Assembly (NCBI GenBank): GCA_951406725.2
Contig: OX597831.1
Location: 13,950,001-14,014,000 of the forward strand
Reading direction: 5' to 3'
Length of the DNA: 64,000 bases
From: Octopus vulgaris
Taxonomy: Eukaryota
Program-made: the position numbers and the translations under genes
Shown here: positions 2,033-58,830 of the stretch, one piece after another
Layout of the letters: every line of letters starts with the position of its first letter
Numbering within the stretch: position 1 is the stretch's first letter
Notes under the pieces: generated by a model
What the model was told of the DNA's origin: nothing
The model's database searches: none
What the model saw: only the letters and a program-made list of their open reading frames with translations

Positions 2033-5000
2033 TTATACTGGAATTGATATAAGTTATGTAAATTTAATTTTTGATTTGATATTTCAGAAATGAATTAAAC
2101 CTTAGCGAGCTGTTTAGCGAGAAGTGAAAACAGAAAGATTCCAGGGGTTGGTGGAAGTTATTTTCCCATTCTATGTTTGCATTCCTGCAAACCTGATAAA
2201 TTCTCCTATAATGGTACTTCACGTTTTATATCAACCTGAATCTTTCTTTGTATCTACATTTAACCCAAACAATTTATTAAAAAAAAGTAGAAACAGGCAA
2301 AACACAATAGACTAATCAGATCTTTGATGCTTCATCGTTTGTTTAAGTATCAATTATATCGAAAATAATCTAATATTTTGTGGTAATTCAATTTACATCA
2401 TCACTAATTTAGCGCACTTCTTCGCGATTTCTTACCATACATTACAAAGAAACATTAATGTCTTACATGGACAGAAGTCAAAGTACTTGTAATAATCATT
2501 CATCCCCTTAATGCACTTCAGATTTTTAATCTTCACAGCACATTCTTTATACTTTAATATACGTCTGCAAGACAAACAGAATTCGGTCGATATCTTTATA
2601 TATATAAAACTGAGAATGTGTGTCTGTCTGTCTGTCTGTCTGTGTGTTTCCCTAAAACTTGAGAACTACACCACCAATTTCATTCAAATTTTACACATGC
2701 CTTACTTAGGTTACATGTAGCTTCATGGACAAAATAAGAATGTTCAACTTCTTGGATAGAGCGAGCCCATAGCAATATCATAACTTCTCCAATATTTCAG
2801 TATTACGTGTTAAAAGTGAAACAAAAATATTTCTCTATTTTATGTCAGATGCTTTCACTTTAACAATAAAAATAATAATAACAATTGAATTCTATGTAGT
2901 AAGTAATAATTAAAATCAAACTAAAGTATAATAATAATCGTAACATACAAAGTAAAAATAGCAATTGGTATAAAATTGCATCAATGATTTGAACTTGAAT
3001 AAGTGGTTTCACATGAATGGGAATAAATTAAAAATAAAATTAGCGTGCAGAAATGGAATTGTCCAGATGGATAATAAAAAATTAAATTAAAGAAAAGACT
3101 ATTGTCTATAAAGTATACAATGTAGAGAAAAAAGAAGAGCTAACAATTCCAGCCTGTTATATATTTTGGGTATTGTTATCACTAGCGATATCAAGATATA
3201 ACATTGTATTTTGTATTTTATGTGTAGATTTATATATATATAGATGTACATGTAATATGTACACATATATATACACATATATACATGCACTAGCACTATG
3301 ACCCGGCAACGACGAGTCTTTAATGGTAGTTATTTTATCAAATTATACTGAATATATCTGGCAATATTTTGTACTAATTTTTGCTACAGAGAAGAAATCA
3401 TACTGAAGTTGATAAAATGTGTGCCATTTTTAAATGTATGGTGTTATATGTTTGATGTTTGTGGGCAAGTCTTTTCGTGGTATAATTTGAATTTTTTGTT
3501 TTATGACGTCAGATCGTGGGTGTAATATTTAAATTCTCCCACACTCTGACAAACAACTTCTAGCGGTATGCTCAATAAATAAATTCTAGTTTTTAAGAGA
3601 TCATGATGCAATGCTTATTTAAATGAGAAATAATAGTGGGAATAAAAAGATATGTACAAGCAGAAACTTTCCCTGCTAAAATCTGAAGAATAATTTTTCT
3701 CGGCTTCTGGGCAATTTATTTCATCCAAGCAACGGCCCACGACAAGAAAATCTGCAAATTAAAAATTATCAGTTAATATTCTTTCCAGATGGAATGAATA
3801 TGCTAAGAATCACTCCGTTCAGCCGCCTACATTTTATTGCCAGCTTAGCAACATGCACCTGGAAGGATGTACCATTACTGATGTAAAAGCCCAGGTCGCG
3901 CACTGACTATGTTTCTAGGATTTCAACCCTTCCAGGTCCAGTGTATTTAACTGGTATTGCATTTAGTTCTGCATGCTGATAACACAAGCCTTGTAATTTT
4001 CAGCATTAAACTGAATGCTATATATGTGAATGTGTGTGTCTGTGTGTGTGTGTGCGTGTGCATATATATAATTATATATATATATATATATATATATACA
4101 TATATATATATGTATTTATACATACATACGTATATATATATATATATATATATATATATATATATATATATATATATATATATATATATATTGGAAGGTT
4201 TGGAGATGATGTACAGGTATTATATATTAGAAGAAATGATGTGATCAGAAGATCGGATGGTTCATATTTATAGATATATATTTATATATTACATTTTTTA
4301 CATATATATATCATATCATTCAGATCATATCATTCAGATTATTAGCGCTTTCTCCCATTCTAGTGGGGTTTTCAAATCAAAATAATTCCTTTATGGGGAA
4401 TTTAATCATTTTATAGAGTTTCGTAGTTGTGGGAAGGGACAAGACAGTACAACCCTCTTGTACTGTCTTGTCCCTCCCCACAACTACGAAACTCTATAAA
4501 ATGATTAAATTCCCCATAAAGGAATTATTTTGATTTGAAAACCCCACTAGAATGGGAGAAAGCGCTAATAATCTGAATGATATGATCTGAATGATATGAT
4601 ATATTTATGTAAAAAATGTAATATATAAATAAATATCTATAAATATGAACCATCCGATCTTCTGATTACCTAATTTCTTCTAATATATATATATATGTAT
4701 GTATGTATATATGTATATATATATATATATATATATATATATATATATATATATATATATATATATATATGTGTGTGTGTGTGTATGTATATATTTATAT
4801 GTATATATATATGTGTAAATATATGTATGCATGTATGTATGTATATATGTATATGCATATATGTGTGTGTGTATGTATATATATATATACATATTTATAC
4901 TTCATAACTTATAATTATGAATACTGTATGAAATGTGATATGACTAAAGTGATAAAGAATGAAATCGTTTGTAAAACATTAACAGAATTAAAACAAAAGA

Positions 5001-8000
5001 ACATATTTCAAATTACTAACTAAATAAGATGAATGCAAAGTTTTTCACAAACTGTATCAAAAATAACGAACATAAACCGACATTAGAATAATTTTCTAAG
5101 TAAAAAACGGTTTACTAACATTTATCTTTTGGAAATGGTTTCCCTGTCAGGTTATAGTGAAGAGTATCATCTGAAATATATACACGAATTACACAACTAG
5201 ATTGATAGATATATCGATAGATAGATCGATAGATAGATAGATAGATAGATAGATAGATAGATAGATAGATAGAAAGATAGAGAGAGAGAGATTGGTAAAT
5301 AGATAGATAGATAATAGATAAATGGATAGATAGATAGATAGATAGATAGATAGATAGATAGATAGATAGATAGATAGACAGATAGATAGATAGATAGATA
5401 GATAGATAGATAGATAGATAGATAGATAGATAGATAGATAGATAGATAGATAGATAGATAGATAGATAGATAGATAGATAGATAGATAGTTTCTTTATTG
5501 GCCACACAGGGCTGCACACAGATGGGACAAGTTACAAGGTAGAGCTTTTCTTTTGGGGGAGAAAAAAAGGTGGCGTAGGTTTTCGATCAAAAGGGATCGT
5601 AAAAGGGGAAAAAGAACAAAAAAAAAAGAAAAAAGAAAAAAGGAAAAAGGGAAAGGAAAAAAAGGGGAAAAAAGAAAAGAAAAATGAAAAAAGAAGAAAA
5701 AAGAGGAAAAAAGGAGGAGAGGAAAAAGAAAAAAACGATCAATAGGGATCGTGTATCACAGTGTCATGATGTACGGTGTAAAGGGGAAAGCAAGTAAGGT
5801 TTATCCGTGGGAAGAAAAGCCTACGAAAAAGACCACGGTAACCTTGGTCAATATTGTTATATGTTACCGCATTTGTTTGCGAGTGGGTAACCCTCTGTTT
5901 TCAATTTCTGGGTTCATAGGATTATGCTCAAGGTGGTTTCGTCATTCATACGTGCCATCCTTGCTACATTCACCCATCTTTTTTTAAAACGTTCGCTAGA
6001 CAAAACTTGCTTCTCTACTCTCACTTTCCTTTTCAAGTGGTACTTGAAGAAGTTGATGAGAGATTGACCAGAGAGGAAAGTGTTTGTCTCCAATCCTTTC
6101 AGACGCGTCCACCAGATACATTCTTTACCCATAGCCACAAGGATGATGAAAATAGCTCTTCCTTCCCGTTTGAAGGAAGGAGGCGTGACAATATTGACGA
6201 TAGACGCAGCTGATAAACCGACTCGTCCCACACGTGATAGCAGTTGTTCGACATAAGCCCACAGGCCGGAAATTGTTGGACACTGCACGAGTGCGTGCAG
6301 AACGGTTTCGTCGCTCTGACCGCATCTCGGGCAGGTCGGCCCCATGTTTCTCGAGCCGTGTCTGTAGAGCTTATCCCGAACGGGTAGCGCTTCTCGGTAG
6401 CATTGCCAGGCCAGGGATTTCTGGAAGTTGTCCATGGGCCCTAGCCCGAAAGTCGTCCCGAACAGGCGGGTCAGGTATTCCTCGTCGACGTCCAGGTTCG
6501 CCCCGAGCTCGTCGTCGTACCTCCCCTCCACTAATCCTCTATAGAATGCTTTGGTTGTGATGAAGTCACTCAAGGTTGACACAGGACGGCAGAGTTGCTT
6601 GAGAGCAACGTGACACTCGCGGTGCCATTCGCCCTTCCTCGGCCTCTTTTTGATCCACGATTGCAGTTCGGTCATGGAGACGAGCTGCGGGAAAGCGTGC
6701 CTCACAAACGGTGACTTCACCTGTTCACCGTCGTCTATGAAGAGCCTGAGATGTCGCAGTCTCAGCGCGTGACTGCGCATCATCAATCACGGCATGCCCA
6801 GTCCTCCTTTTAACGGGTGTTGACAGCAAATGGATCGCCTGACCATCGGGACGCATCCTTTCCACAAGAAGCAAAAGAGAATGCGTTCTAGTTTGGTGAT
6901 GGTAGGGCCGGGACAAGGCACGACAGTCAGGCGGTAGTAGATGACGGACGAGATGTACGTGTTCGCCACCTCCGCCCGACCTTTTAGGGACCTTTTAGGG
7001 ACATTGCCGGGCGAGAGTGACCACCCTACTCGTTATCTCGTTCCAGTTCTTCTCCATTTAGAGGTCCGGACCGAACCAGACCCCGAGCAACTCGACCGGA
7101 CCGTCGGTCCAGCGTCCCACGACGGAGGCGCTGGTTGACGGCATGGGCTTGCTTCTCCAGGTGCCTAGTCGCAAGCCCACTGACTTTTCCCGGTTGATTT
7201 TCGCTCCTGTCACCGCTTCGTAGTTTTTCAGTGTCTCGCCGACCTGCTCGATGTGCTCGTGGCTAGACACTATGACGGTGACGTCGTCCACGTATGCAGA
7301 CACGCTCGTCCCGCATCCCAGTTTTCGCGGGATGCCTCTCAAAGTTGCCAGCTTCCGCAATAGTGGCTCGAGAGTCAATACGTATAGAAGCGACGAGAGG
7401 GGACATCCCTGACGAACCGAACGTGCGATGTCGAAAGGTCTCGATAGATGTCCATTTACGTGAACTACCGAACAGATACCTCTGTACAAAGCGGGTATAC
7501 AGCCGCGGAAGACTGGACCGAAGCCAGCCGCTCTGAGGACTGCCTCCAAGTATTGATGGTCTACCCAACCGAAAGCTTTCCATTGATCCAAATTGATCAG
7601 CGCCCCACCCATGCCAGGTTCGTTAACTACCCTGTCTATGATGTAGCGCATCAGGTGGAGGTTGTCATGGATGGTCCGGCCCGGCACGGCGCACGTTTGC
7701 GCCTTGTCGACCAGTTTCTCGATGACAGGCGCCAACCTCTTGGCTAACACCTTGGCCAAAATTTTCAAGTCTGCATTAAGCAGAGTGATGGGCCTAACGT
7801 TATCTATTACATTTCCCTTGTTTAGATCTTTTCTCAGCAGTGTTACGGCTCCTCGGCTCACAAAACCAGGAATGCTCCCGTTTTGCTGCCAGTTGCAGTA
7901 CACCGCTGCCAAGTCGTCTCCAAACAAGTCTGGCATACAACTGTAAAGCTCGTAGGGTAGACCATCCAAACCCGGCGATTTGTCCCTCGAGCATTCTGCC

Positions 8001-58793: not shown

Positions 58794-58830
58794 CAACAAT
58801 TTGAAGAGAAACGCATAGAATATATTTCAT
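58794..58830 (-). pseudogene. Gene D: exon-1 relic (MKYILCVSLQIV)
   Basis: Homologous to exon 1 of A and C; donor mutated to GGAAGT; SINE inserted between TATA and ATG; no convincing exons 2-5 found. Confidence 0.7.

What the first reader, a model, noticed from the sequence alone, without database searches (positions are those of the whole stretch)
2033..58830. Hidden cluster of five-exon genes for small secreted six-cysteine proteins
Seen: four paralogs share a promoter, an MKY- signal-peptide exon and, where exons survive, intron phases 1,1,2,1, a 98-bp exon 4 and the scaffold C-L-x-E-x2-C-P-E-A-x(11-16)-C-x8-C-x8-C-I-K-x11-C. A (90 aa) and C (116 aa) are intact; B and D are dead. All coding exons are shorter than the ORF-track cutoff and buried in repeats, so automated annotation may miss them. 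I do not recognise the family. Inference: a birth-and-death family of three-disulfide secreted peptides, candidates being salivary/venom, antimicrobial, pheromone or gamete-recognition proteins.
Basis: partly seen in the sequence, partly recalled or inferred. Interest (0 to 1): 0.92.

Follow-up and report, generated by a model that had tools for sequence, protein, structure and literature searches.

The report
Octopus six-cysteine surface-protein repertoire losing anchors
These four octopus gene copies are one end of a 300-kb cluster of about 21 fast-diverging genes for small six-cysteine proteins that share one promoter element; most are predicted to be lipid-anchored on the cell surface and likely act as a varied set of binding proteins, while the two complete genes in this window lack the anchor signal and would be secreted.

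Summary
In detail: exons, phases 1,1,2,1, the 98-bp exon 4, the scaffold, A 90 aa, C 116 aa, B and D broken. The window is the end of a cluster of 21 exon-1 copies over 300 kb; 16 have both domain exons open with six invariant cysteines. Six copies have O. bimaculoides RefSeq orthologues, all uncharacterised and spliced alike. A, C, G1 and G17 lack it, with relics visible in A, B and G17, so 'secreted' is the derived state. Domain exons diverge faster than their introns (57/201 vs 149/1098 sites, p=9e-7), and a 15-bp promoter element is kept in 19 of 21 copies. The predicted fold is a small helical bundle with weak, repeated resemblance to the RGM N-terminal domain and neuritin; no match is significant, and RGM's BMP-binding Gly/His are absent. 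Expression was not shown. Best reading: a co-regulated, diversifying repertoire of anchored binding proteins with repeated release of soluble forms; ligand and tissue unknown.

The parts
13828..13842 (-). A: 15-bp promoter element (CAGCTG E-box then TTACATCA), about 10 nt before a TATA-like box, 92 nt before the ATG
   Evidence: 19 of 21 copies, 0.018 expected per copy
13717..13750 (-). A exon 1, signal-peptide start MKY, phase 1
12267..12308 (-). A exon 2, end of predicted signal peptide, phase 1
3658..3751 (-). A exon 3, Cys1-Cys3, phase 2
2467..2564 (-). A exon 4, 98 bp, Cys4-Cys6, phase 1
2432..2466 (-). A: alternative ending by read-through of the exon-4 donor (11 more residues after the last exon-4 codon, two extra Cys); AATAAA at about 2278
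   Evidence: same two Cys in B and G17; unverified
2033..2037 (-). A exon 5 coding part (one residue, stop)
1950..2036 (-). A: relic of the family's anchor-signal tail, out of frame, ending at the homologous TGA
5917..11326 (-). Broken LINE retrotransposon in A intron 2 (RVT_1, zf-RVT); related piece in B at 26664-29029
23119..23133 (+). B promoter element
23211..23244 (+). B exon 1, start codon reads ATT
25448..25504 (+). B exon 2
29804..29857 (+). B exon 3 remnant (Cys2-Cys3); 5' half missing
30214..30311 (+). B exon 4, open, 22 of 98 bases differ from A while flanks differ 1.6-3.6%
30779..30866 (+). B exon 5 with early stop and the same tail relic as A
51753..51767 (-). C promoter element
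51640..51676 (-). C exon 1
46479..46517 (-). C exon 2
42988..43090 (-). C exon 3
42119..42216 (-). C exon 4, 98 bp
41595..41668 (-). C exon 5: Lys/Pro/Thr tail from an expanded hexamer repeat, no hydrophobic end; the O. bimaculoides orthologue also ends without one
59218..59232 (-). D promoter element, 402 nt from the ATG because a repeat lies between
58794..58830 (-). D exon 1, donor reads GG; no further exons found

Best explanation
The cluster of about 21 tandem copies encodes small six-cysteine proteins, predicted to be helical bundles that are mostly GPI-anchored, and likely serves as a co-expressed repertoire of cell-surface binding proteins kept different from one another by selection; the window's A and C lack the anchor signal and would be released as soluble members. 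Steps: (1) shown: one five- or six-exon layout, copied in tandem with frequent deaths; (2) shown: one promoter element in 19 of 21 copies, inferred: one cell type or one trigger switches them on together; (3) inferred from sequence: signal peptide, three disulfides, GPI addition; (4) shown: the two domain exons diverge faster than the DNA around them while cysteines, frames and tails hold, inferred: each copy binds a different or changing partner (microbial surface, non-self or gamete surface, chemical cue); (5) shown: the tail is missing in G1, C and A/B/G17, with G1 and C tail-less in both species, inferred: up to three separate losses giving soluble binders or decoys. Ligand and tissue are not shown.
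For: Six invariant Cys in 16 of 16 open copies at median 27% identity. Polar spacer plus hydrophobic end in 12 of 16, stop at a homologous TGA in most; only 17 of 737 acceptor-started short frames of the region look like that, the real tails included. Orthologues for six copies at 54-86% domain identity, four with the tail, two without as here. G3-G6: 57 of 201 variable sites in exons 3-4 vs 149 of 1098 in introns 3-4, p=9e-7; exon 5 7 of 95. A vs B exon 4: 14 non-synonymous and 1 synonymous codon, flanks 1.6-3.6%. Promoter element 19 of 21. AlphaFold2 model all-helical, pLDDT 83, pTM 0.72. Nearest look-alikes are GPI-anchored binding proteins: RGM N-domain and neuritin. A second cluster with the same exon grammar lies 3.3 Mb away.
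Against: dN/dS among young copies is about 1 (0.85-1.35) and exceeds 1 significantly in none of 15 pairs; synonymous sites in the domain exons are raised too (A/B pS 0.16 vs pN 0.24, p=0.76), so gene conversion of introns or relaxed constraint could give the pattern. No GPI or signal-peptide predictor was run; both are read from hydropathy. G9's tail is weakly hydrophobic and G11's runs past the usual stop. No A orthologue was found in another species, and A's ending is ambiguous, so A may be decaying. No fold match is significant. The tree allows one origin of the tail-less state under starred branches. Only 10 of 21 copies were assembled end to end.
Confidence: 0.5

Rival explanations
1. Neuritin-like neural proteins: anchored and soluble forms shape neurite growth or synapse choice, expanded in octopus as a wiring or plasticity code.
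For: Same architecture as neuritin: signal, small domain, GPI anchor, plus soluble form (PMC12715718 passages). ESM Atlas ranks Neuritin third, score 0.85, 145 of 256 features.
Against: 0.85 is lead-level only; PF15056 hits none of 7 family sequences scanned or the genome. Neuritin is described as conserved, these copies are 27% identical at the median. No expression data.
Confidence: 0.15
2. Gland-secreted effectors (saliva/venom, mucus, antimicrobial, pheromone), at least for the tail-less members.
For: A, C and G1 have a signal peptide, no anchor and are small with six Cys; C and G1 are tail-less in two species. Fast change in the mature exons with conserved introns resembles venom-peptide families (recalled). 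Octopus salivary proteomes hold unexplained short secreted cysteine-rich proteins (PMC7693380 passages).
Against: 12 of 16 open copies keep an anchor signal and share the same promoter element. No toxin family matched in Pfam or PDB.
Confidence: 0.15
3. Stand-alone RGM N-terminal domains acting as BMP/GDF co-receptors when anchored and as decoys when released.
For: Pfam RGM_N E=0.014 for 1 of 7 family sequences; all 4 PDB sequence hits at E<=10 are RGM N-domains, best E=0.051; the family profile lands on the RGM helix after Cys3 in 23 of 24 RGM proteins and beats Cys-fixed shuffles in 5 of 6 tested.
Against: RGM's BMP-contact Gly (Cys5+2) and His (Cys5+7) (PMC7354924 passages) occur in 0 of 22 and 1 of 22 sequences. 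The genome has its own complete RGM gene on another contig, with the N-domain in one exon. Fast divergence fits badly with conserved BMP ligands. The motif matches vertebrate RGMs better than the octopus one.
Confidence: 0.1
4. The window copies are mostly decaying: loss of the anchor was the first step to pseudogenes, and A (with B, D, G17) has no function.
For: B and D are broken; G17 lost its exon-5 acceptor; A vs G17 dN/dS 1.35, not significant; A has a long branch and a LINE in intron 2.
Against: C is 86% identical to its O. bimaculoides orthologue and is under purifying selection against G1 (dN/dS 0.44, p=0.015). A keeps all six Cys, its splice sites and a perfect promoter element despite 22-34% divergence in the domain exons.
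Confidence: 0.1

Closest known systems
O. bimaculoides uncharacterised proteins XP_052830461.1 (LOC128249908), XP_052830374.1 (LOC128249871), XP_014778060.1 (LOC106874739), LOC128249877, LOC128249878
   Same: Orthologues of C, G1, G14/G15, G12, G13; same junctions, cysteines and tail state.
   Different: No name, domain or function; not recognised as a family; 0 papers hold any of six identifiers searched.
RGM N-terminal domain (Pfam PF06535; RGMA/B/C, hemojuvelin)
   Same: Three helices and three disulfides on a GPI-anchored protein (PMC7354924 passages); Cys3-x8-Cys4-x7-Cys5 spacing and the C-x2-L-R-x-Y-x2-C motif in the 98/89-bp subfamilies.
   Different: No C-terminal vWD-like domain or GDPH site; Cys1-x5-Cys2 and Cys5-x11..13-Cys6 instead of x4 and x21; BMP-contact Gly and His missing; phase-2 intron inside the domain; multi-copy and fast-evolving.
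Neuritin / CPG15 (Pfam PF15056)
   Same: About 120-140 aa, signal peptide, GPI anchor, soluble form; third ESM Atlas hit. Six-Cys helical domain of neuritin is recalled, not from a call.
   Different: No HMM match; neuritin is conserved and makes its soluble form by cleavage, whereas here soluble forms come from separate tail-less genes.
Unnamed Mollusca clusters in the ESM Atlas (129 aa, 51 members; 115 aa, 66 members)
   Same: Top feature hits, 0.92 and 0.90; similar length.
   Different: No alignment was available; kinship is a lead. It suggests the scaffold is molluscan and only the expansion is octopus-specific.

Membership tests
RGM family | RGM_N domain above Pfam cut-off (24.2 bits) | tested here: not met
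   Best 16.1 bits, E=0.014, 1 of 7 family sequences; hhalign probability 14.6
RGM family | C-terminal RGM_C domain with GDPH autocleavage site | tested here: not met
   Proteins end 1-35 residues after Cys6; the true RGM is at G000:C2
RGM family | BMP-contact residues of the RGD/RGN loop and helix 3 (Gly, Leu, His) | tested here: not met
   Gly 0 of 22, His 1 of 22; Leu or Met at +4 in 10 of 22
RGM family | Three-helix bundle with three disulfides | tested here: inconclusive
   Helical model; RGMB Z 4.5, rmsd 4.0, 59 aligned, rank 36 among unrelated helical rows; Foldseek E 3-8; disulfide pairing not read out
RGM family | Binds BMP/GDF ligands | not testable with these tools
Neuritin (NRN1) | PF15056 match | tested here: not met
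   0 of 7 family sequences; 0 matches in the genome, exon-wise search
Neuritin (NRN1) | Signal peptide plus C-terminal GPI signal around a small domain | tested here: met
   12 of 16 open copies by hydropathy; not met for A and C themselves
Neuritin (NRN1) | Remote homology of the domain | tested here: inconclusive
   ESM Atlas 0.85, 145 of 256 features, lead only; P0001 gave no usable hit
Neuritin (NRN1) | Activity-regulated neural expression | not testable with these tools
   No RNA holder listed
GPI-anchored proteins | Small-residue omega region, polar spacer, hydrophobic C-terminal end | tested here: met
   Tail hydropathy 2.2-3.6 after a polar start in G3-G6, G8, G12-G16; no predictor run
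Cephalopod salivary short secreted cysteine-rich proteins | Detected in posterior salivary gland or saliva | tested here: inconclusive
   Supplement of PMC7693380 gave 0 hits for four motifs and two accessions, but it lists transcript ids rather than sequences in the rows seen and was cut when stored

The most novel reading that the evidence does not exclude
Octopus has turned an ancient neuritin/RGM-N-type helical module into a multi-cluster, co-regulated recognition repertoire (a self/non-self, gamete or neural-wiring code) in which anchored receptors and genetically encoded soluble decoys diversify side by side, a molluscan counterpart of Ly6/Dpr-type codes on a scaffold not known for this use.
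Probability: 0.2. Interest if true: 0.85.

Novelty: new variant of a known kind. Interest (0 to 1): 0.58.

Why it matters
It defines an unnamed, expanded octopus gene family that short exons hide from annotation, and gives a directly testable set: 16 variants of one 60-residue scaffold, anchored or free, under one promoter element. Cephalopods lack adaptive immunity and have few described variable surface proteins; such a family is a candidate for microbe, self or gamete recognition. If the link to neuritin and the RGM N-domain holds, it also shows that this module exists as a stand-alone, evolvable binder in invertebrates. Repeated loss of the anchor is a clean natural case of surface proteins becoming secreted ones.

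Tried and rejected
RNA evidence: no RNA holder was listed. Seven guessed-RNA runs were laid (X1, X2, X7, X14 on 1700-3900; X2, X10, X12, X16 on 41350-43300); only intron repeats and the exon-5 hexamer repeat were covered, no exon and no splice joint. The runs were picked up through repeats and their tissues are unknown, so this says nothing on expression. Fold searches: Foldseek on both models gave nothing under E=2; VIA-align best Z 5.6, unrelated helical proteins. PDB search with exon 4 alone gave only chance hits. Profile against the octopus RGM domain alone: probability 0.1. P0005 and P0006 are repeat-driven false hits and were dropped. Complex prediction with octopus BMP2/4 was not available; no verdict. 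'Confined to one locus' was dropped. Flanks: 40 of 273 long frames were scanned; only transposon domains and one DUF6840 repeat-level hit. Literature: ten searches showed no paper naming this family; subscription journals and bioRxiv supplements were not searchable and could hold tissue tables.
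Full report
Source. The window is G000:C18:13,950,001-14,014,000 of a 2.8-Gb genome. Its RGM exon is 99% identical to the Octopus sinensis protein, so this is an Octopus genome.

Observation. Six-frame motif search, self-BLAST and splice scanning found all four copies. A and C splice with GT..AG introns in phases 1,1,2,1 to 90 and 116 aa. B has ATT for ATG and lacks the 5' half of exon 3; A and B are an inverted duplication. D is a promoter and exon 1 with a GG donor, and no exon 3 or 4 homologue follows it.

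The cluster. I fetched 400 kb before and 200 kb after the window. Exon-1 homologues number 21 between 13.711 and 14.009 Mb, on both strands; I label those outside the window G1-G17. Sixteen copies have both domain exons open, all with C-x5-C-x14..19-C-x8-C-x7/8-C-x11..13-C, at 15-80% identity, median 27%. Ten copies were assembled end to end; exon 2 was not resolved for G8, G9, G11, G12 and G15, and G17's ending is unclear. G2, G7, G10, B and D lack exons or start codons. A 15-bp element, CAGCTG followed by TTAC(A/G)TCA, lies just before a TATA-like box in 19 of 21 copies, against 0.018 expected per copy. That it is an E-box beside a bZIP site is recalled. Following a lead from earlier notes, I found a second cluster at 17.23-17.40 Mb with the same intron phases and 86-89-bp exon 4 but C1-x7-C2.

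Orthologues. Database searches returned only O. bimaculoides RefSeq proteins, all uncharacterised, apart from two repeat artefacts. They pair one to one with C (86% domain identity), G1 (80), G14 (85), G12 (75), G13 (64) and G15 (54) and are joined at the predicted points. This supports the gene models; whether those RefSeq models rest on RNA was not seen. No orthologue of A was found. My own RNA checks were uninformative.

The missed feature. In 12 of the 16 open copies exon 5 encodes a polar spacer with small residues and a hydrophobic end, the pattern of a GPI signal; four orthologues have it too. Of 737 acceptor-started frames of 25-40 residues in the region, 17 show that pattern, the real tails among them. 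G9's tail is weak and G11's is extended. G1, C, A, B and G17 lack it. A and B keep the old tail frame one base off, ending at the homologous stop and now holding charged residues; G17 has a stop in it and a lost acceptor; C has an expanded hexamer repeat and a stop. C and G1 are tail-less in both species. The tree needs three changes of state, though starred branches do not exclude one origin. So anchoring is the likely ancestral state and the window shows the released branch. A, B and G17 also share an exon-4 read-through with two extra cysteines, and A and B have AATAAA behind it, so A's true end is open.

Selection. Among G3-G6, exons 3-4 vary at 57 of 201 sites, introns 3-4 at 149 of 1098 (p=9e-7) and exon 5 at 7 of 95; the start of intron 1 is more variable still (119 of 297), so the contrast is local. 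A and B differ at 22 of 98 bases in exon 4 against 1.6-3.6% in the flanks. Against this, dN/dS is about 1 in young pairs and above 1 significantly in none of 15; synonymous sites are raised as well. The pattern fits positive selection or conversion of introns with selection keeping the exons apart; both imply maintained diversity, but relaxed constraint is not excluded. Older pairs show purifying selection (C vs G1 0.44, p=0.015).

Fold and kin. AlphaFold2 gives an all-helical domain (pLDDT 83, pTM 0.72; full-length G1 orthologue 87.5) from alignments made mostly of single-exon rows. Resemblance to the RGM N-domain recurs but is never significant: Pfam E=0.014, four of four PDB hits, best E=0.051, hhalign 14.6%, Z 4.5 at rank 36. 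The family profile finds the RGM helix after Cys3 in 23 of 24 RGM proteins and beats cysteine-fixed shuffles in 5 of the 6 domains that could be extracted. The ESM Atlas ranks two unnamed molluscan clusters first (0.92, 0.90), then neuritin (0.85) and DUF1397 (0.77). The family is not RGM: no C-terminal domain, BMP-contact Gly and His absent, and a true RGM gene exists elsewhere. It is not shown to be neuritin. It is built like both: a small disulfide-stapled helical domain on a lipid anchor. I put distant homology at about even odds or slightly better.

Mechanism. One promoter element, one scaffold, many divergent surfaces and an anchor point to a repertoire of surface binders made together by one cell type, with soluble members produced by loss of the tail (0.5). 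Rivals: neural neuritin-like code (0.15), gland-secreted effectors (0.15), BMP co-receptor or decoy (0.1), decay of the window copies (0.1). Ligand and tissue are the untested steps.

Papers seen: passages of PMC7354924, PMC12715718, PMC9068888 (mentions unnamed squid gene arrays, not this family in the passages seen), PMC12607849, PMC7693380 and its cut supplement; the rest as search listings only. Ten searches showed no description of the family.

Verdict. An unnamed octopus expansion of a probably old molluscan scaffold, present in RefSeq as uncharacterised entries. New variant of a known kind; interest 0.58.

Noticed in passing
G000:C18:17,230,000-17,400,000 (L101-L117): Second, divergent cluster with the same exon phases and six-Cys grammar but C1-x7-C2; at least seven exon-3-like and six exon-4-like exons.
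   Followed up: partly
window 13828-13842, 23119-23133, 51753-51767, 59218-59232: 15-bp promoter element kept in 19 of 21 copies whose proteins are 27% identical at the median.
   Followed up: partly
window 2432-2466 and 30312-30346; G000:C18:13,934,447: Exon-4 read-through gives two more cysteines in A, B and G17, the second kept through a synonymous change; possible eight-Cys, four-exon form.
   Followed up: partly
window 5917-11326 (-) and 26664-29029: Broken LINE in A intron 2 with a 74% identical piece in B intron 2; another LINE fragment at 33345-34369.
   Followed up: partly
G000:C2:46,683,999-46,684,205 (L064): The single true RGM gene; the octopus and Argonauta proteins are 760-805 aa, much longer than most other RGMs listed.
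   Followed up: no
G000:C18:13,827,000-13,902,000 (G12-G15): Subfamily with an extra 36-bp phase-1 exon encoding a charged, probably helical N-terminal extension, and a Tyr/Glu-rich exon 4.
   Followed up: partly
window 14586-15031 and 54106-54603: A 24/37-bp satellite just upstream of A and a 55-bp tandem array of nine copies between C and D.
   Followed up: no
L051:6669-9998 (-): Open 1110-aa reverse-transcriptase frame of a LINE about 70 kb beyond the window.
   Followed up: no
G000:C23:28,292,055 and 28,332,266: Two TGF-beta-family exons with identical scores in inverted orientation 40 kb apart: recent duplication or assembly duplicate.
   Followed up: no
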